Shown piece after piece: positions 724 through 20,743 of a DNA stretch of 64,000 nt. The translations under genes and the position numbers were made by a program. The DNA is from a bacterium HR19 (GTDB lineage: Bacteria; Calescibacteriota; Calescibacteriia; Calescibacteriales; Calescibacteriaceae), in contig BEHV01000001.1 of NCBI GenBank assembly GCA_002898315.1, forward strand, positions 196,620 to 260,619, written 5' to 3'. Each line of letters starts with the position of its first letter. The stretch's first letter is position 1. Below the pieces are notes generated by a model that worked only from the letters and a program-made list of their open reading frames with translations, had not been told where the DNA came from and did not search any database.

Positions 724-2976
724 ATGGTTGACACAGCAAACAAAAACATCACCCCGTGGGAGCAGATAGATATAAACAAGCAAAGCGAAGGTTTTGATGT
801 TTGGAAAGAAATAGACGAATACGAGGAAGTGATACAAAAATTTTTCAGAGAAGAAATACATCCAGAAAGATTCAAAAGCTACCGGTTGAACTTCGGAACC
901 TATGGAGTAAGACATCATCCAGACGGAACCCACATGCAAAGAATAAAGATACCATCTGGATTTATATTTTCAGAACAGATAAGAGTTATTGCTGATGTAG
1001 TGGAAAAATACGCTGGGTCAGGGCATGGGCATCTCACAACTCGCCAAGATATCCAACTCCACTATGTAAAACTTGAAAATATCCCATCTGTTTTAAGAGA
1101 ACTTGCAAAAGTAGGAATAACAACCCGTGAAGCATGCGGAAACACCGTAAGAAACATAACTTCTTCTTACCTTTCAGGAATATGTCCAGACGAGATTTTT
1201 GATACTCTCCCCTATGCCATATTTACAACAAGATACTTTTTAAGACACCCTCTCACATCAACTCTGCCAAGAAAATTTAAGATAGCATTCTCTGAATGTG
1301 AAAACGACCATGCCATGGTAAGAATGCACGATATAGGAGCAGTCGCTCAGATAAGAAAAAACGGAAAAGAAGAAAAAGGGTTCAGAGTTTATGTAGGCGG
1401 GGGGCTCGGACCTGTTCCTATGGATGCAAAACTCCTTGTAGATTTTGTATCTGTTTATGAGTTCTACCCACTCGCAGAAGCAATAATATATGTCTTTCAT
1501 AAATACGGAACAGAAGAGAGAAAATTCAGAAACAAAGCGAGGTTAAAATTCCTTATTGCAAGAATAGGTTTTGAAAAATTCAAAGAACTCGTATTTGAAG
1601 AGTTTGAAAAACTCAAAAGAGTTAAAAATGTCAGAGAAGAACTTGAAAGATATGTTGAAAACTTCCCTCTTCCAGCTCCGACAAAAACCGGAAGAGCAGA
1701 TGGACCCAAAAACGAAAAGAAACTCAAAAAACCTAAATTCAAACCAGATCCATCAGATAAAACATTCAAACTGTTTTTAGAAAAGTACACATTCAAACAA
1801 AAACAACCCGGATACTTCGGAGTATATATAAAGCCAATTTTGGGAAATCTGAAACCAGATGAATTCAGATTCGTAGCAGATATTGCAGAACTATATGGAG
1901 CAGGTTATGTAAGAATAACTCCTCAGCAGAAAATCCTGATACCTTGGGTTGAAGAAGAATTCCTCTACGACATATACTATGAAATAAGAAATAAGGGGTT
2001 CATAAATGGAGCGGTGACAGAGGCACAAAGAGAAATCGTCTCATGTCCCGGCGCTTTCTCGTGCAAACTCGCGGTAACACATCCATATAACCTCGCGGAG
2101 TACATAGGAGAGGTGGTAGGAGATCTTGGGGGTTTAAGAGTACATATTTCAGGATGTCCGAACTCGTGCGGTCAGCATCACATAGGAGATATAGGATTTT
2201 ACGGAGGTAGCGCAAAGATAAACGGAAAACTCGCCCCACACTACATAGTTATGATAGGAGGATACTTGTTTGAACAAAAAGCAAGGTTCGGAGAAGTTAT
2301 AGGAAAGATCCCTGCCAAAAATGCCCCACTGTTTGTGAAAGAAGTCGTTGAACTATGGAAAAAAGAAAGAAAAAGCGGAGAGAAATTCTACGAGTTCTGC
2401 GATAGAATAGGTCTTGACAGATTCAGAGAAATATTAGCGAAATACTCAAAAGTGGACCCGAACGATGAAGATGTTTTCAGAGAACCGGGATTGGCAGAAG
2501 AGTTCAAGATGGAAGCCGAAGCAAGAGGAGAATGTGCGGGAAGCTTGCTTGACCTTATGGCAATAAACCTCTTTGACTCATTCCGAAACATATATGAAAT
2601 TGAAAATGAAATCAAAATCAATATCAGAAGTGAATCTATAAAAGAGAAAATCCTTGACTCTATACTAAAATGCGCAAAAATGTATGTATATCTTGAAGGA
2701 GAAGAACCACAGGAAGAAGAAAAAATATTATCCGTGTTCGCAGAAAGAATTCTTCCCAAAAAGTGGTTCTGTTCAGATTGGTCAAACATAAGAGAAAAAT
2801 ACAACGAGATAAAATCAAAGAACTTTTCTGAACTGAATGAAGACGAAATAAAAAAATACATCATTTATGCCAAAAACTTCATAAAAGATAGCGAAAAAGC
2901 TTTCGTCAGATTGAAACCTAACCTCAAAATTCAAGAGTGCCTCGCAAGAAAAGAAGAACATGTTCCGGGAGATTAG
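724..2976 (+). CDS. Ferredoxin-type assimilatory nitrite/sulfite reductase (siroheme/4Fe-4S) with a ~180-aa Lys/Glu-rich C-terminal extension
   Basis: Duplicated NiR/SiR ferredoxin-like half-domains. The siroheme-[4Fe-4S] cysteine cluster is SCPGAFSCK...GCPNSCGQHH. At 750 aa it is far longer than the ~550-600 aa typical for this family. Confidence 0.8.
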   Translation: MVDTANKNITPWEQIDINKQSEGFDVWKEIDEYEEVIQKFFREEIHPERFKSYRLNFGTYGVRHHPDGTHMQRIKIPSGFIFSEQIRVIADVVEKYAGSGHGHLTTRQDIQLHYVKLENIPSVLRELAKVGITTREACGNTVRNITSSYLSGICPDEIFDTLPYAIFTTRYFLRHPLTSTLPRKFKIAFSECENDHAMVRMHDIGAVAQIRKNGKEEKGFRVYVGGGLGPVPMDAKLLVDFVSVYEFYPLAEAIIYVFHKYGTEERKFRNKARLKFLIARIGFEKFKELVFEEFEKLKRVKNVREELERYVENFPLPAPTKTGRADGPKNEKKLKKPKFKPDPSDKTFKLFLEKYTFKQKQPGYFGVYIKPILGNLKPDEFRFVADIAELYGAGYVRITPQQKILIPWVEEEFLYDIYYEIRNKGFINGAVTEAQREIVSCPGAFSCKLAVTHPYNLAEYIGEVVGDLGGLRVHISGCPNSCGQHHIGDIGFYGGSAKINGKLAPHYIVMIGGYLFEQKARFGEVIGKIPAKNAPLFVKEVVELWKKERKSGEKFYEFCDRIGLDRFREILAKYSKVDPNDEDVFREPGLAEEFKMEAEARGECAGSLLDLMAINLFDSFRNIYEIENEIKINIRSESIKEKILDSILKCAKMYVYLEGEEPQEEEKILSVFAERILPKKWFCSDWSNIREKYNEIKSKNFSELNEDEIKKYIIYAKNFIKDSEKAFVRLKPNLKIQECLARKEEHVPGD

Positions 2977-5580: not shown

Positions 5581-7071
5581 GTGCAAGAAACAGAAAAAAA
5601 CTTACTTCAAACCCTTGAAAGAATAGCAAAATTGCTCTCATCTTACGGAAGTTTTGACAGCATACTGAAACAGGTTCTACATGTGATAGAAACAGAAGCA
5701 GGACTAAAAGACCCAGCAATAACTATACTCAACTTCTCCTCATCGCTCAGACCGAAAGATAAAAAAAGAGAAGAATTAGAAAAGAAGTATAAACCACCTT
5801 TGAAAGATAAAGTCCCCTTCAACGGCTCTACCTTCTTAATATCTCCGATAAGAATAGAGGGAAGAGATATAGGTTTCATAAGCGCCATAGCAGAAGAAAA
5901 AGATGTAAGAGAAGAGGTTCTCTCATTTCTCTCATTTGTCGGAAGTTTGATCGGATTTTCATTTTTTGTCCTCGCAAAGGAAAAAACAGAGGTAAAAAAT
6001 GTAGGGAACATAATTTTCAGGTCAAAACAAATGGACGAGGTGATAAAATTAGCTCTTGAAGTTGCAAAATCAGATGCCACAGTTCTTATAAGAGGAGAAA
6101 GCGGAGTAGGGAAGGAGCTCCTCGCAGAACTCATACACAATAACTCCCCGAGAAAATCAAAAATGCTCGTCAAAATAAACTGCGCAGCAATACCCGAAAA
6201 TCTCCTTGAAAGTGAGCTTTTCGGATACAAAAAAGGCGCATTCACAGGAGCAATAACAGACAAAAAAGGAAAAATAGAGATGGCAGATGGAGGAACAGTT
6301 TTTTTAGACGAAATAGGAGACCTCCCCCTTCCCCTTCAAGCAAAAATACTCCGACTTATCCAGAACAAAGAAATAGAACCAATAGGAGGACAACCGAAAA
6401 AGGTAGATGTCAGAATAATTTCAGCTACGAACAGAAACCTTGAAGAACTTGTGAAAGAAGGAAAATTCAGAGAAGATCTATATTACAGATTAAATGTTAT
6501 TCCCATCTATATCCCACCCCTGAGAGAGAGAAAAGAGGATATTTTGCCTCTCGTTGAGTTCTTCATAGAAAAATTCAACAAAAAGTATAAGAAAAACATA
6601 TCAATATCAAAGGGAGCGCTCACGATTCTTGAAAAATACCAGTGGTATGGAAATATCAGAGAACTTGAAAACCTTATAGAACGACTTGTCCTGACCTCAT
6701 CTGACCTTGTCATAACTCCTGACGATATTCCAGATTACATAAAAGAAAAAATACACGAGGAGGAAAAAAGAAAGAAAGAAGAGCCAGAAGAAGTTTTGCC
6801 ATCAAAACGAGAAAAGAAGGCAGAAGAAAATAAGAAAAAAACTGCTCTGCAAGAGATTTTTGAGAAACTGGAAATTTCAGATTCTCGTGGTTTGCTCTCT
6901 TTGATAGAAGATATTGAAAAGAAAATAATTGAAAATGTCCTCGCTGAATCAAAGAATATATCAGATGCTGCAAGGAAGCTCGGAATATCAAGGAGACAAC
7001 TTGAATGGAGGTTAAGGAAATACAAAATTGAGTTTCTTAATTATGGGAGGAAAAGCTCTTTTCAGAAATGA
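5581..7071 (+). CDS. Sigma-54-dependent transcriptional activator, NifA-like: N-terminal GAF domain, AAA+ sigma-54 interaction domain, C-terminal HTH. GTG start.
   Basis: Walker A GESGVGKE, the GAFTGA loop (ELFGYKKGAFTGA) and the C-terminal Fis-type HTH (AARKLGISRRQLEWRLRKY). There is no receiver domain. The N-terminus has GAF-like features. Confidence 0.85.
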   Translation: MQETEKNLLQTLERIAKLLSSYGSFDSILKQVLHVIETEAGLKDPAITILNFSSSLRPKDKKREELEKKYKPPLKDKVPFNGSTFLISPIRIEGRDIGFISAIAEEKDVREEVLSFLSFVGSLIGFSFFVLAKEKTEVKNVGNIIFRSKQMDEVIKLALEVAKSDATVLIRGESGVGKELLAELIHNNSPRKSKMLVKINCAAIPENLLESELFGYKKGAFTGAITDKKGKIEMADGGTVFLDEIGDLPLPLQAKILRLIQNKEIEPIGGQPKKVDVRIISATNRNLEELVKEGKFREDLYYRLNVIPIYIPPLRERKEDILPLVEFFIEKFNKKYKKNISISKGALTILEKYQWYGNIRELENLIERLVLTSSDLVITPDDIPDYIKEKIHEEEKRKKEEPEEVLPSKREKKAEENKKKTALQEIFEKLEISDSRGLLSLIEDIEKKIIENVLAESKNISDAARKLGISRRQLEWRLRKYKIEFLNYGRKSSFQK

Positions 7072-7151: not shown

Positions 7152-7167
7152 TGGCACACCTTTTGCA
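7152..7167 (+). promoter_or_regulatory. Sigma-54 promoter, an exact TGGCAC-N5-TTGCA consensus match, upstream of glnA
   Basis: ctGGCACaccttTTGCAata lies 89 nt upstream of the glnA ATG. An extremely A-rich ~77-nt leader follows, ending in a GGAGG ribosome-binding site. Confidence 0.8.
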
Positions 7168-7255: not shown

Positions 7256-8683
7256 ATGGCAAAGCAAAGACCACGAGACGCAAAGGATCTCATGGAAATG
7301 ATAAAGGCAGAAAAAGCAGTATTTGCCGATATAAAGTTTGTAGACCCACTCGGAAGATTACAACACCTCACAGTACCAACTTCACAACTCACAGAAAAAG
7401 TGATAGAGGAAGAAGGAACAGGTTTTGACGGTTCCTCAATAAGAATGTGGCAATCAATACACGAGTCAGACATGCTCCTTTTTCCTGACCCTAAAACCGC
7501 AGTTGTTGACCCTTTCTTCAAAGAAAAAACAATATCTCTTATCGCGAATGTAAAAGACCCCATAACACACGAACCATACTATAAAGACACAAGGCAGATC
7601 GCTCAGAACGCAGAAAAATACCTTAAAGAAACCGGAATTGCCGATTCCACTCTCTTCGGTCCAGAACTTGAATTTTTCATCTTTGACTCCGTATCAGCAG
7701 CAGAAGCTCCTAACTACTCTTTTTACAAAATTGATTCCGAAGAAGGAGCGTGGAGAAGTGGAGATGAAAATTCAAAAGGATATAAAATAAGATATAAGGA
7801 AGGTTATTTCCCAGCATCACCTTTTGACACCCTAACAGATATAAGAAACGAAATATCTCTCATTCTTGAGGAGATGGGCATTGATGTAGAGGTCCATCAC
7901 CACGAAGTCGCAACTGCTGGTCAAGGAGAGATAGATATAAGAGCAAGACCTTTGGTTGAAATGGCAGATAACGCCATAATGCTAAAATATGTTTTGAAAA
8001 ACGTCGCAAAAAAATACGGTAAAACCGCAACCTTTATGCCAAAGCCCATTTTCGGAGATAACGGAAACGGAATGCACACACACCAGAGCTTGTGGAAAAA
8101 CGGAAAACCGCTGTTCGCAGGAGAAAAATATGCGGGTCTTTCAGAACTCGCTATGTGGTATATAGGTGGAATAATAAAACACGGAAGAGCCCTCTGTGCC
8201 ATTACAAACCCAACAACAAACTCCTACAAAAGATTGGTCCCAGGATATGAAGCTCCTATAAACCTCGCATACTCGCAAAGAAATAGGTCCGCAGCGATAA
8301 GAATTCCTATGTACTCCCCCTCACCAAAGGCAAAAAGAATTGAGGTCAGATTCCCAGACCCATCTTGCAACCCATACCTAGCATTCTCAGCAATGCTACT
8401 TGCGGGACTTGATGGAATAGAAAAGAAAATCAATCCCGGAGAACCATTTGACACCAACATATACAAACTCCCACCAGAAGTTCTCGCAAAAGTTCCTAAA
8501 ACACCTTCCTCTCTTGAAGAAGCTCTTGAAGAACTCAAAAAAGACCACGATTTCCTCCTCAAAGGTGGAGTATTCTCAAAAAAATTTATAGAAGAATATA
8601 TTGAATGGAAGTATGAGAACGAAGTTAAAGAGCTTTATGCAAGACCTACTCCATGGGAAATAATATCATACTTTGATGCATAA
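7256..8683 (+). CDS. glnA: Glutamine synthetase type I. The ORF-track start at 7028 is an artefactual upstream extension.
   Basis: GGAGG ribosome-binding site 8 nt before the ATG at 7256. The translation (MAKQRPRDAKDLM...GNGMHTHQSL...NPTTNSYKRLVPGYEAP) carries the GS catalytic and adenylylation-loop region motifs. Length is 476 aa. Confidence 0.9.
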   Translation: MAKQRPRDAKDLMEMIKAEKAVFADIKFVDPLGRLQHLTVPTSQLTEKVIEEEGTGFDGSSIRMWQSIHESDMLLFPDPKTAVVDPFFKEKTISLIANVKDPITHEPYYKDTRQIAQNAEKYLKETGIADSTLFGPELEFFIFDSVSAAEAPNYSFYKIDSEEGAWRSGDENSKGYKIRYKEGYFPASPFDTLTDIRNEISLILEEMGIDVEVHHHEVATAGQGEIDIRARPLVEMADNAIMLKYVLKNVAKKYGKTATFMPKPIFGDNGNGMHTHQSLWKNGKPLFAGEKYAGLSELAMWYIGGIIKHGRALCAITNPTTNSYKRLVPGYEAPINLAYSQRNRSAAIRIPMYSPSPKAKRIEVRFPDPSCNPYLAFSAMLLAGLDGIEKKINPGEPFDTNIYKLPPEVLAKVPKTPSSLEEALEELKKDHDFLLKGGVFSKKFIEEYIEWKYENEVKELYARPTPWEIISYFDA

Positions 8684-8753
8684 AAATGTAGAATAGAAAG
8701 TAATCAGATAAACTCAAAAAATTTAAAAAAACAGGAACGGAGGTGGTGTAGCT

Positions 8754-9575
8754 ATGAAAAAGATAAAACGGGAGTACTTTATTCTTTCAAATAAAAAAGG
8801 GTCAAAGGCAAAACTTTATCTTCTGCTATCAGTAGTCATAAATATAGCAATAGTGAAAGTAGTTGCTGCAACCCCATCAACAACATTCTGGGCTCCATCA
8901 ACTCCCTACCTACAACCTTTCGGTGTCCTACATATTACCTATGACTCTTACTTTACCATAAGCAATATGCTACCTATGTATATAGGTCTCACTTCTGGAA
9001 TATTACCAACGAAAGAAATAAATCTTGAGGTCGGTTTTGACTTTCTTATACCACAGAAAGACATTACATCATCTCTGATACTCAACACGAAAATAGGAAC
9101 TCCCGAAGATACACTCTTCAAAGGTCAACCCGGGTGGTCGTTTGGAATATTCAACCTCGGCTTCAAAAAAGGAGTGAATGATTTTAACATACTCTACTTT
9201 ATGCTGGGTAAGACCATGCTTGAAGATTGGGGAGCAATAAAATATCTCGGTACATTAGAGTTCGGAGCGTACTACGGCTTAAATAAAGAACTCCTCAACA
9301 ACGAACAATTTGGTATAATGGCTGGCTGGTTTTCATATCCGATTGACATCCCGATAATAGATAAGATAGTCCTCGCTTGGGATATAATGACCGGGAAAAA
9401 TCACGGGTTCGGAGCAACGGGAGGCGGAATATACTTTTTCATCACACCATCAATAGACCTACTGACAGGTCCTGTTTACTTTTTGAGTAAAAAATCAGCA
9501 CAATCAGCAGGGGCAATAAGCCAGCTAATCTGGACACTCCAACTTGATGTAGATATAGATCTGAAGAAAAAATAA
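8754..9575 (+). CDS. Hypothetical secreted protein, predicted outer-membrane beta-barrel, embedded in the gln/amt operon
   Basis: N-terminal signal-like hydrophobic segment, then alternating hydrophobic/aromatic beta-strand patterns, many Gly/Tyr/Phe/Trp, and no long TM helices. No recognisable family. Confidence 0.45.
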   Translation: MKKIKREYFILSNKKGSKAKLYLLLSVVINIAIVKVVAATPSTTFWAPSTPYLQPFGVLHITYDSYFTISNMLPMYIGLTSGILPTKEINLEVGFDFLIPQKDITSSLILNTKIGTPEDTLFKGQPGWSFGIFNLGFKKGVNDFNILYFMLGKTMLEDWGAIKYLGTLEFGAYYGLNKELLNNEQFGIMAGWFSYPIDIPIIDKIVLAWDIMTGKNHGFGATGGGIYFFITPSIDLLTGPVYFLSKKSAQSAGAISQLIWTLQLDVDIDLKKK

Positions 9576-18913: not shown

Positions 18914-20743
18914 TCACACAACAAGCTTTGTGACAACTCCATGAAGTTTCACAGGAGGAAAATTATAAAATGTCTCAAAAGATGGAGCTAATTTCTTGAT
19001 GATTGAGTAGAACTTCACCAAAGGATTTTTCGTTATTATATCCTCTATTCCATAGAATATGACCACAGGTTTTATATCATATTCCTGAAATATCTTTGCA
19101 ACATCAACAAACTCCATATATCCGTGTTCTATGATGAAAATTTTGAGTCCGTTTCCTACATCTGTGAGATAAACTTCAACACCATATGGTTTTCCTGACT
19201 CTCTTACAGACATCAGAATGTTTTCTTCGTAGATTATACCTTGACCTATTATGTTCATAACATAAGGAGGGATTCTGTTCGTATCTCTCACAAGAAATAT
19301 CGCAGTTCCCTTTATCTTATTTTTTATGAGTTCGGAATAAATCTTCTGGTAAAGTTCAAGAAAAGCATAGTAATCCATCGGAGAAAGTGCTTTTGCGATT
19401 TTTTCTCCCCCAAGCTTGAAAACCATCATAACAGCAAAAGGTACAGAAGCAACAGCAACCGATACATATCCACCATGAGGAATTTTCGTTGATGTAGCAA
19501 CAAGATATAAAAGAGATGAAAAAACACAGAGCAGAGAAAGGAGAAAAAACAAAATTTCTTTCTCGCGCCAAAAAATAAGAGATAAACTGATAGCAGTAAA
19601 AGCTATAACCACATTTACAGAAAATCCATACGCATGCCCAAGATTTTCAGAAGTCCTAAAAATAAACATTACAAGAAGAATAACCGAAAATAAAATCCAG
19701 TTCATCTGCGGAATATATATCTGTCCGTACAAATGAGGAGATTTATGCTCAACACGAACACGAGGGAAAATATGAATAACTATACTCTGATATATTATTG
19801 AAAAGAAAGCAGTTATGACCGACTGTGAAGCTATGACAGTAGCAAGAGATGACAAAAAAACAAAGGGAACATAAAGAGTATCTGATATTTCTTTTGCTAA
19901 GCCGAAAAATACGAGTTCTGTTTTAGAATGAGAGAGAACAAAAGCTCCTTGCCCCAGGTAATTCAAAATCAGCGAAGGGAAAACAAAGAAAAACCAAGAT
20001 TTTCTTATAGGGCTTACTCCTAAATGACCTATATCTGCGTAGAGAGCTTCTGCTCCTGTCACAGAAAGAATAGTTCCAGATAAAGCTAAAATGCCCTCAA
20101 ATTTGTTATCAAGAAGGAACTTTATCGCAAAATAAGGATTCAAAGCTAAAAGCACCTTCGGTTCTTTCAAGATGAATATGATACCAAAAATGCCCAGAGC
20201 CAAAAACCAAACAAACATCACAGGAGAGAACAAAAAAGATATTTTCCCTGCTCCTCCGCGCTGAATAAGAAAAAGTAAAAAGCAGATCACAACAGACAAC
20301 AAAACAACAGTTCCCTGATCTATTTCATAAGCTAATTTCAGACCCTCATTAGCTGAAATAATACTTATCGCAGGAGTTATAACAGAATCACCGATGAAAA
20401 ATGAGATGACAAGAATAAGAATAAAAATAAAGTATCTGTCAAAAAACTTTTTCCCTCTGAAACGAGAGACGAGAAACCTATAAAGTATAATAACCCCTCC
20501 TTCACCCCTTATGCTGAACTTCATCGCTAAATAAGCATATTGAATAGATGAAATTATAACAAGAGTCCAGAATATCAGCGAAATAACACCTAAAACATTC
20601 TGAAAAGTTGGCTTGACCATGCTAAAAACTATTGAGAGAGTATAAATTGGACTCGTACCTATATCTCCAAAAACAACGCCTATTGGTTTCAAATTAGAAA
20701 AAAGAGGAGTTAAGAAACCTGATTTATTTCCTTGCTCATTCAT
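18914..20743 (-). CDS. kup: KUP/HAK/KT potassium uptake transporter
   Basis: GDIGTSPIY signature, ~12 TM helices, and a C-terminal cytoplasmic domain. Confidence 0.85.
   Translation of the reverse strand: MNEQGNKSGFLTPLFSNLKPIGVVFGDIGTSPIYTLSIVFSMVKPTFQNVLGVISLIFWTLVIISSIQYAYLAMKFSIRGEGGVIILYRFLVSRFRGKKFFDRYFIFILILVISFFIGDSVITPAISIISANEGLKLAYEIDQGTVVLLSVVICFLLFLIQRGGAGKISFLFSPVMFVWFLALGIFGIIFILKEPKVLLALNPYFAIKFLLDNKFEGILALSGTILSVTGAEALYADIGHLGVSPIRKSWFFFVFPSLILNYLGQGAFVLSHSKTELVFFGLAKEISDTLYVPFVFLSSLATVIASQSVITAFFSIIYQSIVIHIFPRVRVEHKSPHLYGQIYIPQMNWILFSVILLVMFIFRTSENLGHAYGFSVNVVIAFTAISLSLIFWREKEILFFLLSLLCVFSSLLYLVATSTKIPHGGYVSVAVASVPFAVMMVFKLGGEKIAKALSPMDYYAFLELYQKIYSELIKNKIKGTAIFLVRDTNRIPPYVMNIIGQGIIYEENILMSVRESGKPYGVEVYLTDVGNGLKIFIIEHGYMEFVDVAKIFQEYDIKPVVIFYGIEDIITKNPLVKFYSIIKKLAPSFETFYNFPPVKLHGVVTKLVV

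What the first reader, a model, noticed from the sequence alone, without database searches (positions are those of the whole stretch)
8754..9575. Unannotated beta-barrel-like protein co-transcribed with glnA/amtB
It has a signal-like N-terminus followed by alternating aromatic/hydrophobic dyads typical of transmembrane beta-strands, with no family match I can recall. Its position between glnA and amtB is highly non-random for a diderm that must pass NH4+/NH3 or an N-source across the outer membrane.
Basis: inference. Interest (0 to 1): 0.6.

Follow-up and report, generated by a model that had tools for sequence, protein, structure and literature searches.

The report
Outer-membrane channel paired with ammonium/potassium uptake
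The gene between glnA and amtB encodes a secreted 12-stranded outer-membrane barrel from a large family that no database describes, and because its relatives sit next to ammonium or potassium importers in many phyla, it is probably the outer-membrane gate for these two similar-sized ions.

Summary
The ORF at 8754-9575 (+) is real. It has a good ribosome-binding site and a Sec signal peptide, and hundreds to thousands of conserved homologues, all labelled "hypothetical". There is no Pfam, NCBIfam or PDB sequence match. AlphaFold2 gives a confident 12-stranded beta-barrel (mature protein pLDDT 90, pTM 0.85). Every significant PDB fold match is an outer-membrane barrel; the best is a KdgM-family monomeric porin (TM 0.60-0.66). 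Strand residues alternate between variable hydrophobic and invariant polar, mostly acidic, positions.

The gene lies in a glnA-ORF-GAF-amtB-glnK cluster behind the window's only perfect sigma-54 promoter. In 80 loci from other species, 57 have amtB, glnK, glnA or kdp directly adjacent on the same strand. Within 3 kb, 54 loci have nitrogen genes and 9 have kdpFABC. Other members sit next to a KimA-like K+ importer or a cation/proton antiporter. Kdp-linked and Amt-linked members interleave in the tree.

Best reading: a scarcity-induced outer-membrane channel for NH4+/K+ (confidence about 0.6). The fold and the linkage are shown; transport is inferred. It is a new family within a known class, of moderately high interest.

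The parts
5581..7071 (+). NtrC-like sigma-54 enhancer-binding protein, the likely activator of the operon
   Evidence: Pfam Sigma54_activat 9.8e-72, AAA_lid_14 and HTH_8. The same gene lies upstream of glnA in the syntenic loci L005, L011, L012 and L014.
7152..7167 (+). Sigma-54 (-24/-12) promoter TGGCACACCTTTTGCA, about 90 nt upstream of the glnA ATG
   Evidence: It is the only zero-mismatch match to TGGCAC-N5-TTGCW in the 64 kb window. Function is inferred from the consensus match and position.
7256..8683 (+). glnA (glutamine synthetase type I), first gene of the cluster
   Evidence: Pfam Gln-synt_C 2.9e-136 and Gln-synt_N 3e-27. The conserved part starts at the ATG at 7256.
8739..8746 (+). 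Ribosome-binding site GGAGGTGG of the barrel gene
   Evidence: Read directly from the sequence; it lies 7 nt before the ATG at 8754.
8754..8870 (+). Sec signal peptide (residues 1-39), predicted cleavage after VAA
   Evidence: It has a basic n-region, a hydrophobic h-region and an A-x-A type site. The same boundary is followed by an invariant TPST motif across the family.
8871..9575 (+). Mature 234-aa 12-stranded outer-membrane beta-barrel; the stop codon is 9573-9575. Strand-position residues that are invariant in the 36-sequence alignment: H60, D64, E92, D96, N111, K113, D210, Q263, D265. Invariant N-terminal segment: TPSTTFWAPST.
   Evidence: AF2 pLDDT 90.4 and pTM 0.85 with 12 strands. Foldseek hits are all outer-membrane barrels, the best being 8xua (TM 0.60/0.66). 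Dyad conservation pattern; invariant columns.
9594..10094 (+). Stand-alone GAF-domain protein, probably a cytoplasmic nitrogen-status sensor; overlaps the amtB start by 22 nt
   Evidence: Pfam GAF_2 1.8e-12. Partial NCBIfam matches to the GAF regions of PtsP and NifA. Found only in the Calescibacterium-type loci.
10073..11332 (+). amtB ammonium transporter (inner membrane)
   Evidence: Pfam Ammonium_transp 3.4e-119.
11405..11743 (+). glnK/glnB PII regulator
   Evidence: Pfam P-II 5.8e-37.

Best explanation
The ORF encodes a small, probably monomeric, 12-stranded outer-membrane beta-barrel from a previously undescribed family. I propose it is a cation-selective outer-membrane channel for the similar-sized ions NH4+ and K+.

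It is exported by Sec and its signal peptide is cut after A-x-A. The barrel would then be inserted by the Bam machinery. It is made together with the high-affinity inner-membrane importer when that ion is scarce.

In this window, an NtrC-like activator would drive a sigma-54 promoter under nitrogen limitation. That promoter transcribes glnA, the barrel gene, the GAF gene, amtB and glnK together. Ammonium would then cross the outer membrane through the barrel, cross the inner membrane through AmtB, and be fixed by glutamine synthetase.

The lumen carries invariant acidic and polar residues: D64, E92, D96, D210, D265, N111, Q263, H60 and one K113. These would attract and bind the cation, raising flux at micromolar concentrations. 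This is analogous to the way phosphate-specific porins work for anions.

Shown here: the gene, its export signal, the barrel fold, the operon layout and the cross-phylum linkage to Amt/Kdp.

Inferred: outer-membrane location, an open pore, cation selectivity and the physiological role.
For: **Fold.**
- Two AF2 runs give the same 12 strands: pLDDT 82 for the full protein and 90 for the mature protein, pTM 0.75 and 0.85.
- All Foldseek PDB hits with E<=1e-3 are outer-membrane barrels.
- The best superpositions are with 12-stranded monomeric channels. These are the KdgM-family porins VhGalP 8xua (TM 0.60/0.66) and NanC 2wjq, the copper channel PcoB 7pge, and a designed 12-strand barrel 9fdg.

**Topology signature.** Lipid-facing positions are variable and hydrophobic, while lumen-facing positions are invariant polar or Gly. 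The family has a Sec signal peptide. Many distant members end in ...QLDINF, the classic C-terminal Phe signal of outer-membrane proteins.

**Diderm host.** lpxD lies at 16632-17708. Calescamantes carry yfiO/bamD (PMC4791363).

**Co-expression.** Intergenic gaps are tight or overlapping, there is no + strand intergenic terminator, and one perfect sigma-54 promoter lies ahead of glnA. The same gene order occurs in L005, L006, L011, L012 and L014.

**Linkage across phyla (80 species-level loci).**
- 54 loci are within 3 kb of amtB, glnK or glnA.
- 9 loci are within 3 kb of kdpFABC/D.
- 57 loci have such a gene directly adjacent on the same strand.
- Further members lie ahead of glnD-glnK (L029, L030).
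- One lies next to a KimA-like K+ importer (L080, PDB 6s3k, E=1.8e-60).
- One lies next to a Na_H_Exchanger-family antiporter (L027).

**Shared function for both ions.** Kdp-linked and Amt-linked members interleave in a neighbour-joining tree, with at least 4 switches. They share every invariant lumen residue.

**Published expression data.** The G. sulfurreducens operon GSU0938 (hypothetical, 753 nt) - PII - ammonium transporter has a predicted RpoN promoter and is up-regulated during N2 fixation (PMC2725144 supplement; PMC2995071). Its gene order and size match the Geobacter family members in L065 and L066.
Against: - There is no experimental evidence for location, pore or selectivity for any member.
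- I could not inspect model coordinates. The lumen could be blocked, for example by the invariant N-terminal segment or by the many lumen glycines packing tightly.
- A cluster of invariant Asp/Glu/His/Lys residues inside a small barrel is also what an outer-membrane enzyme looks like (OmpT, LpxR, OMPLA).
- General porins normally pass K+ and NH4+ freely, so the need for a dedicated channel is not established.
- 17 of 80 loci show no N or K gene within 3 kb, although several of those contigs are short.
- The two nearest paralogues outside the glnA context (L013, L015; 60-67% identical) sit next to unrelated genes.
- The window protein has Tyr at lumen position 76 where 65 of 84 members have Asp.
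- It ends in ...DIDLKKK rather than in an aromatic residue.
- The tree has no bootstrap support.
Confidence: 0.6

Rival explanations
1. It is an outer-membrane barrel channel, but not one specific for NH4+/K+. It could be a small general diffusion pore, or a pore for another solute needed in the same conditions, such as NH3 gas, urea, amino acids, or counter-ions during osmotic adaptation, when K+ uptake and glutamate synthesis rise together.
For: The fold and context evidence are the same as for the main explanation. K+ uptake and glutamine/glutamate synthesis are physiologically coupled in osmoadaptation (established knowledge). Some members lie next to MFS transporters (L034; L001). Kuenenia induces an unrelated BBP2 porin under ammonium limitation (PMC7438415).
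Against: The partners are specifically Amt, Kdp, KimA-like and CPA transporters, which are all monovalent-cation systems. An extremely conserved, net-acidic lumen argues for a specific cationic ligand rather than general diffusion.
Confidence: 0.2
2. It is an outer-membrane enzyme or lipid-remodelling barrel, comparable to OMPLA, LpxR, PagL or OmpT. The invariant His/Asp/Glu/Lys/Asn residues would form an active site, and the protein would be induced as part of a nutrient-stress envelope response.
For: OMPLA (12 strands) is among the fold matches, with TM 0.42-0.47. There are nine or more invariant polar residues and many invariant glycines. The invariant mature N-terminus could be a functional element other than a filter.
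Against: The invariant polar residues share the parity of the lumen-facing positions rather than the lipid-facing side, where lipid-acting enzymes usually place their sites. No enzyme family HMM matches. An enzyme does not explain the repeated, independent linkage to both Amt and Kdp/KimA/CPA transporters.
Confidence: 0.1
3. It is a non-transport outer-membrane component. It could be a sensor or a docking/scaffold protein whose conserved periplasmic face (the N-terminal TPSTTFWAPST, the GxPED turn, the SPxIDxP turn) interacts with a periplasmic partner of the uptake systems.
For: The best-conserved non-strand motifs fall in the N-terminus and in turns that should face the periplasm, given the standard topology of outer-membrane proteins (inference).
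Against: No conserved periplasmic partner gene accompanies the family across contexts. Amt and Kdp have no known periplasmic components. The conserved lumen is left unexplained.
Confidence: 0.07
4. It is not a membrane barrel at all, but a soluble secreted or periplasmic beta-rich protein. It might be a binding protein for ammonium or potassium.
For: Only the signal peptide is directly evident from the sequence. The AF2 models were not inspected at coordinate level.
Against: The outward-facing strand positions are uniformly hydrophobic and variable. All fold matches are integral outer-membrane barrels. Many members end in a C-terminal Phe signal.
Confidence: 0.03

Closest known systems
KdgM/NanC family of 12-stranded monomeric specific porins (e.g. 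VhGalP 8xua, NanC 2wjq)
   Same: This is the best structural match: TM 0.60/0.66 and rmsd 4.8 A over 234 columns for 8xua. It has a similar size (about 205-235 aa), 12 strands and short loops. It is also encoded next to the uptake or catabolic genes for its substrate (established knowledge for KdgM/NanC).
   Different: Sequence identity is only 7-8%, and no member gives a KdgM or any other significant Pfam hit. KdgM-family pores are lined with basic residues for acidic oligosaccharides (my own knowledge), whereas this lumen is net acidic. This family also has an invariant N-terminal TPSTT[FY]W motif.
OprP/OprO and PhoE: phosphate-starvation-induced, ion-specific porins
   Same: The logic I propose is the same. 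An outer-membrane channel is co-regulated with a high-affinity inner-membrane importer under scarcity, and a ladder of charged residues concentrates the ion (functional analogy; established knowledge for OprP).
   Different: Those proteins are 16-stranded trimers and are anion-specific through Arg/Lys ladders. There is no sequence similarity and only generic barrel-level fold similarity. No monovalent-cation equivalent turned up in my literature searches.
PcoB/CopB copper outer-membrane channel (7pge)
   Same: It is a small monomeric barrel found among the fold matches (TM 0.49/0.55). It is a cation channel encoded in the operon of the matching metal-handling system.
   Different: It handles a different ion (Cu). 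There is no sequence relationship (9-11% identity) and no Pfam match.
BBP2 (PF07642) OmpL-like porins induced by ammonium limitation in Kuenenia (KSMBR1_3177)
   Same: The published hypothesis is the same: an outer-membrane porin is raised to increase ammonium influx under limitation (PMC7438415). A BBP2 porin sits immediately upstream of a family member in the acidobacterial locus L029.
   Different: BBP2 proteins are much larger (about 400 aa) and form an unrelated Pfam family. The window protein has no BBP2 hit.
GSU0938 of Geobacter sulfurreducens (hypothetical protein in the GSU0938-glnK-amtB operon)
   Same: It is very likely a member of this family. It is 753 nt (250 aa) and is the first gene of an operon with PII and the ammonium transporter. 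The operon has a predicted RpoN promoter and is up-regulated during N2 fixation. Order and size match the Geobacter MAG members in L065 and L066.
   Different: I could not obtain its sequence, so membership rests on synteny and length only. It has never been characterised functionally.

Membership tests
Outer-membrane beta-barrel proteins (class) | N-terminal Sec signal peptide with a signal-peptidase I site | tested here: met
   The window protein has a basic n-region, a hydrophobic h-region and VAA|TP. An A-x-A site followed by TPST occurs across the family.
Outer-membrane beta-barrel proteins (class) | Even number of amphipathic strands with alternating lipid-facing hydrophobic residues, forming a barrel fold | tested here: met
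   Two AF2 runs give 12 strands. The dyad pattern appears in every strand. All Foldseek hits with E<=1e-3 are outer-membrane barrels. Barrel closure was not checked at coordinate level.
Outer-membrane beta-barrel proteins (class) | C-terminal beta-signal ending in an aromatic residue | tested here: inconclusive
   The window protein's last strand, W-T-L-Q-L-D-V-D-I-D-L, is followed by KKK with no terminal aromatic. Members of the distant clade end ...QLDINF or ...LPSF.
Outer-membrane beta-barrel proteins (class) | Host has an outer membrane | tested here: met
   LpxD is encoded at 16632-17708 (-) in the window. The closest relatives are Candidatus Calescibacterium, which has been judged Gram-negative from yfiO and other outer-membrane genes (PMC4791363).
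KdgM/NanC porin family (PF06178) | Sequence match to the family HMM | tested here: not met
   The window protein has no Pfam hit at E<=1, and none of 107 members hits KdgM.
KdgM/NanC porin family (PF06178) | 12-stranded monomeric barrel of about 200-240 residues | tested here: met
   Matches 8xua with TM 0.60/0.66 and 2wjq with TM 0.46/0.51.
KdgM/NanC porin family (PF06178) | Basic pore lining suited to acidic oligosaccharides | tested here: not met
   The lumen-parity invariant residues are D64, E92, D96, D210 and D265 against one K113 and H60, so the lining is net acidic. This is inferred from strand parity, not from coordinates.
General trimeric porins (OmpF/OmpC, 16 strands) | 16-stranded barrel with a constricting L3 loop | tested here: not met
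   The model has only 12 strands, and all loops are 14 residues or shorter. TM to OmpC/OmpF-type chains is 0.2-0.38 with rmsd 10-19 A.
BBP2 OmpL-like porins (PF07642) | Sequence match to the family HMM | tested here: not met
   There is no hit. A true BBP2 protein was recognised by the same search in L029 (4.5e-75), which serves as a positive control.
Scarcity-induced ion-specific porins (functional class, OprP-like) | Co-regulated or co-transcribed with the matching high-affinity importer | tested here: met
   The operon layout and sigma-54 promoter are in the window. 57 of 80 loci have amt, glnK, glnA or kdp adjacent on the same strand. This is genomic evidence only; no expression data exist for this organism.
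Scarcity-induced ion-specific porins (functional class, OprP-like) | Measured ion selectivity and saturable conductance | not testable with these tools
   This needs planar-bilayer electrophysiology or liposome-swelling assays.

The most novel reading that the evidence does not exclude
This would be the first outer-membrane channel family dedicated to monovalent cations. It would be a compact 12-stranded barrel whose invariant acidic lumen forms a binding site for partly dehydrated K+/NH4+. The invariant N-terminal Thr/Ser/aromatic segment (TPSTT[FY]W) might contribute hydroxyl and cation-pi ligands, reminiscent of the AmtB recruitment site. Bacteria from more than ten phyla would plug this channel interchangeably in front of Amt, Kdp, KimA-like or CPA transporters. 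If so, outer-membrane permeability to K+ and NH4+ becomes limiting, and is actively managed, at environmental micromolar concentrations.
Probability: 0.4. Interest if true: 0.8.

Novelty: new variant of a known kind. Interest (0 to 1): 0.64.

Why it matters
Textbook models treat the outer membrane as freely permeable to K+ and NH4+ through general porins. They place all regulation of these ions at the inner membrane (Amt/GlnK, Kdp). A conserved barrel hard-wired into amt and kdp operons in many phyla suggests otherwise. These phyla include Myxococcota, Desulfobacterota/Geobacter, Nitrospirota, Acidobacteriota, Planctomycetota, Verrucomicrobiota, Gemmatimonadota and Calescibacterota. In many environmental diderms, the outer-membrane step for these ions appears to be specific and regulated.

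The finding would give names and a testable function to thousands of "hypothetical proteins". It would add a missing component to nitrogen- and potassium-acquisition models, including those for N2-fixing Geobacter and nitrifying or anammox-type communities. It would also offer a small, thermostable, possibly K+/NH4+-selective beta-barrel pore of interest for nanopore and biosensor engineering. The family also lacks a Pfam model, so a new entry is warranted.

Tried and rejected
- **Family libraries.** Pfam and NCBIfam scans of the protein, and of 107 members, found nothing meaningful. The Sterol-sensing, DUF4179 and similar hits are sub-threshold noise on signal peptides.
- **PDB sequence and profile searches.** No relatives were found; the best E was 0.035 to an unrelated 108-aa protein.
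- **Model coordinates.** Pore radius, plug position and electrostatics could not be computed, and lumen assignment rests on strand parity.
- **Literature.** Searches for an ammonium or potassium porin, or for kdp-associated barrels, found no description of this family. The only related items are the Kuenenia BBP2 hypothesis and the uncharacterised GSU0938.
- **Cluster names.** The look-up returned only "hypothetical protein". One JGI label, "peptidoglycan hydrolase-like", on P0313 looks like a mis-annotation and was ignored.
- **K-specific versus N-specific residues.** None were found. Positions 62, 212 and 267 track the two major clades, not the genomic context.
- **Lipoprotein.** Rejected: the window protein has no lipobox Cys at the cleavage site.
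- **A second copy or a kdp operon in the window.** Neither is present; there is only a Kup gene 9 kb away.
- **GSU0938 sequence.** It could not be retrieved, so membership is argued from length and synteny only.
Full report
**1. The observation**

The ORF at 8754-9575 (+) encodes 273 aa. A GGAGGTGG ribosome-binding site lies 7 nt upstream of the ATG.

- an NtrC-like sigma-54 activator, 5581-7071;
- glnA, with its conserved part running from the ATG at 7256 to 8683;
- the ORF;
- amtB, 10073-11332;
- a PII gene (glnK), 11405-11743.

The spacing is 70 nt, 18 nt, a 22-nt overlap and 72 nt. All genes are on one strand, and no + strand terminator-like site lies in any intergenic gap. The only perfect match to the sigma-54 consensus in the whole window, TGGCACACCTTTTGCA at 7152-7167, sits about 90 nt before the glnA start. 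Co-transcription under NtrC/sigma-54 control is therefore the natural reading. It is inferred, not measured.

**2. Is it a real, conserved protein?**

Yes. A search of 5.8 billion proteins found 274 homologues at E<=1e-3. They are 42-91% identical over nearly the full length, about 260 aa long, all labelled "hypothetical", and none carries a Pfam domain.

An exhaustive scan of 1.84 billion 50%-identity representatives gave 284 clusters. Searching again with a Geobacter-type member gave 2145 clusters at E<=1e-10.

The window protein has no Pfam or NCBIfam hit even at E<=1. None of 107 members has a meaningful Pfam hit. Profiles of the family find nothing in PDB sequences.

**3. What the protein looks like**

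The family has a Sec signal peptide ending A-x-A. The mature N-terminus that follows is almost invariant: TPSTT[FY]W[AT]P.

AlphaFold2 was run twice:
- Full-length protein with 36 sequences: pLDDT 82, pTM 0.75.
- Mature protein with 107 sequences: pLDDT 90.4, pTM 0.85.

Both runs give the same 12 beta-strands joined by short loops of 14 residues or fewer.

Every Foldseek PDB match with E<=1e-3 is an integral outer-membrane barrel. The good superpositions are with 12-stranded monomers:
- VhGalP 8xua, a KdgM-family porin: TM 0.60/0.66, rmsd 4.8 A;
- intimin and invasin beta-domains;
- PcoB;
- NanC;
- FapF;
- OMPLA;
- a designed 12-strand barrel.

The 16-stranded general porins match only loosely (TM 0.2-0.38).

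Within each strand, one face is hydrophobic but variable and the other is polar or glycine and nearly invariant. Sixteen columns are invariant in all 84 non-redundant family proteins examined, including D64, E92, D96, N111, K113, E118 and D210. Three more are near-invariant: H60 and Q263 (83 of 84) and D265 (82 of 84).

By strand parity, the lumen carries D64, E92, D96, D210 and D265 (plus D267 and D269 in this clade). Against these stand one Lys (K113) and one His (H60). The lumen is therefore net acidic. This assignment comes from sequence pattern, because model coordinates could not be read.

Many members of the more distant clade end in ...QLDINF, the classic C-terminal Phe of outer-membrane proteins. 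The window protein instead has a KKK tail after its last strand.

**4. Is the host a diderm?**

The closest loci are an unnamed hot-spring MAG (90% identity) and several Candidatus Calescibacterium genomes (59-67% identity). The window itself encodes LpxD, a lipid A biosynthesis enzyme. Calescamantes have been judged Gram-negative from outer-membrane assembly genes (PMC4791363).

**5. The key comparative result**

I first looked up five homologues in their own contigs:
- Three lie inside or next to kdpFABC-kdpD operons (P0051, P0102, P0101).
- One lies directly before amt (P0017).
- One reproduces the window's NtrC-glnA-ORF-GAF-amtB-glnK order (P0005).

A scan of one genome per species returned 234 encoded relatives. 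I examined the 80 best. I located Amt, GlnK, GlnA and KdpA-D in those loci by tblastn, with these results:
- 54 loci have a nitrogen gene within 3 kb.
- 9 loci have kdp within 3 kb.
- 17 loci have neither; several of these are short contigs.
- In 57 of 80 loci the partner is directly adjacent on the same strand, most often with amtB immediately downstream.

For scale, I estimate that a random gene lies within 3 kb of an amt, glnK or glnA locus in under about 1% of cases. That is a rough figure from typical genome sizes, not a computed control.

Among the loci with neither partner or with a more distant one:
- L029 and L030 have glnD then glnK downstream, and L029 has a BBP2 porin upstream.
- L080 is followed by a 667-aa APC-family permease. 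Its only PDB relative is the K+ importer KimA (E=1.8e-60).
- L027 is followed by a Na_H_Exchanger-family cation/proton antiporter.
- Others sit beside unrelated genes: TelA, chemotaxis genes, DUF364, and a nuclease domain in the Calescibacterium paralogues L013 and L015.

The taxa include Myxococcota (among them the cultured Anaeromyxobacter oryzae), Geobacter and other Desulfobacterota, Nitrospirota, Acidobacteriota, Planctomycetota, Verrucomicrobiota, Gemmatimonadota, Eisenbacteria, Latescibacteria and Omnitrophota.

In a neighbour-joining tree, Kdp-linked and Amt-linked members are interleaved, with at least four context switches. They share all invariant lumen residues, and I found no residue specific to one context. 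The tree has no bootstrap support, so the number of switches is indicative only.

**6. Link to published data**

In Geobacter sulfurreducens, GSU0938 is a hypothetical protein gene of 753 nt. It is the first gene of an operon with a PII gene (GSU0939) and the ammonium transporter gene (GSU0940). The operon has a predicted RpoN promoter (PMC2725144 supplement). It is among the genes up-regulated during N2 fixation and carries an antitermination signal (PMC2995071).

The Geobacter MAG members L065 and L066 are 251 and 254 aa and show the same barrel-glnK-amtB order. GSU0938 is therefore very probably a member of the family. I could not obtain its sequence to prove this.

Separately, an unrelated BBP2 porin of Kuenenia is induced under ammonium limitation. 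Its authors suggested it raises ammonium influx (PMC7438415). I found no paper that describes the present family, or any outer-membrane porin specific for ammonium or potassium.

**7. Most likely mechanism (confidence about 0.6)**

The protein is exported by Sec and inserted into the outer membrane. It forms a small cation-selective pore. NH4+ and K+ are nearly the same size, and the family is attached to importers of one or the other. The simplest explanation is a channel that admits both ions. It would be expressed with whichever high-affinity inner-membrane system is induced by scarcity: NtrC/sigma-54 with Amt here, and Kdp elsewhere.

The conserved acidic lumen would concentrate the cation at micromolar external levels. 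This would make it the cation counterpart of phosphate-specific porins.

The invariant N-terminal Thr/Ser/aromatic segment is modelled without regular secondary structure. Its confidence is pLDDT about 70 for mature residues 1-10 and 94 for residues 11-20. It may line or gate the pore, but that is speculation.

**8. Rival explanations**

- A channel for something else or a general pore, possibly tied to K-glutamate osmoadaptation: 0.2.
- An outer-membrane enzyme using the invariant His/Asp/Glu/Lys cluster: 0.1. This is disfavoured because it does not explain linkage to several different cation transporters.
- A periplasm-facing scaffold or sensor: 0.07.
- A soluble beta-protein: 0.03. This is contradicted by the hydrophobic outer face and by the fold matches.

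**9. Comparison with known families and novelty**

In fold, the protein is closest to the KdgM/NanC 12-stranded specific porins. It fails their sequence model, and the lumen charge is opposite. It is not a BBP2 porin, not a general trimeric porin, and not in any Pfam family.

In proposed working it resembles OprP/PhoE, through the logic of scarcity-induced specific porins, and PcoB, a small cation barrel encoded in its system's operon.

I classify it as a new family within a known class, that is, a new variant of a known kind.

**10. Caveats**

- There is no experiment on any member.
- Pore openness has not been checked.
- About one fifth of loci are unlinked to N or K genes.
- The nearest paralogues, L013 and L015, are unlinked.
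- Two loci are binned to lineages not expected to have an outer membrane (Micrococcales L078, Limnocylindrales L087). These could be binning errors, or they could count against an outer-membrane role.

Noticed in passing
window 9594-10094 (+): A stand-alone 166-aa GAF-domain protein lies between the barrel gene and amtB and overlaps the amtB start by 22 nt. Its best partial matches are the N-terminal GAF regions of PtsP (EI-Ntr) and NifA. It occurs only in the Calescibacterium-type loci (L005, L011, L012, L014). It may be a small-molecule nitrogen-status sensor coupled to AmtB.
   Followed up: partly
window 7152-7167 (+): This is the only perfect sigma-54 promoter consensus (TGGCACACCTTTTGCA) in the 64 kb window. 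It lies between the NtrC-like gene and glnA. Matches with up to 2 mismatches are also more frequent than in shuffled sequence (32 against a mean of 17.9).
   Followed up: partly
window 11809-12384 (+): A 191-aa ORF just after glnK is built of repeated units of roughly 11-13 residues (D[RK]KIEELRI[ES]T...) and ends in a hydrophobic segment. Its only Pfam hit is a sub-threshold apolipoprotein-like match. A short ORF with no Pfam hit occupies the same position in L005 and L006.
   Followed up: no
window 18914-20743 (-): A Kup-type K+ transporter (K_trans 9.8e-138) lies about 9 kb from the barrel gene. It is not adjacent, and no kdp genes are in the window.
   Followed up: partly
window 16632-17708 (-): This ORF encodes LpxD, a lipid A biosynthesis acyltransferase. 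It is direct evidence within the window that the organism makes LPS and so has an outer membrane.
   Followed up: yes
window 724-2976 (+): A 750-aa protein with a duplicated nitrite/sulfite reductase domain lies upstream of the nitrogen-assimilation cluster. An M24 aminopeptidase and a luciferase-like monooxygenase follow it.
   Followed up: no
window 14885-16558 (-): An MCP signalling-domain protein sits next to an ODP-family (metallo-beta-lactamase fold) protein. The pairing resembles a chemoreceptor gene placed beside a sensor-domain gene.
   Followed up: no
window residues 76 and 155-161 of the ORF (8979-8981; 9216-9236): The window protein has Tyr at lumen position 76, where 65 of 84 family members have Asp. 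It also carries a 7-residue insertion (MLEDWGA, modelled as a short helix) found only in the Calescibacterium clade.
   Followed up: partly
L013 6283-7092 and L015 7929-8726: These are the closest paralogues outside the glnA-amtB context (67% and 60% identical). They lie next to a bifunctional-nuclease-domain gene and a possible lipid A acyltransferase-like gene, not next to N or K genes. This suggests a second, differently regulated copy in Calescibacterium.
   Followed up: partly
L029 6710-7930 (+): A BBP2 (OmpL-like) porin gene sits immediately upstream of the family member. glnD and glnK follow, so two different barrels lie in one nitrogen-regulation cluster of an acidobacterium.
   Followed up: partly
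L080 1553-3556 (+) and L009 831-2810 (+): KimA-like APC-family permeases of about 660 aa lie next to a family member (L080) and just upstream of kdpF (L009). The L080 protein's only PDB relative is the K+ importer KimA (E=1.8e-60).
   Followed up: partly
L078 and L087: Family members occur on contigs binned to Micrococcales and Limnocylindrales, lineages not expected to have a classical outer membrane. In both, the gene lies next to amtB. The cause is either a binning error or an interesting exception.
   Followed up: no
P0024 (428 aa): One homologue is 428 aa instead of about 260, which suggests a fusion or a mis-called start.
   Followed up: no
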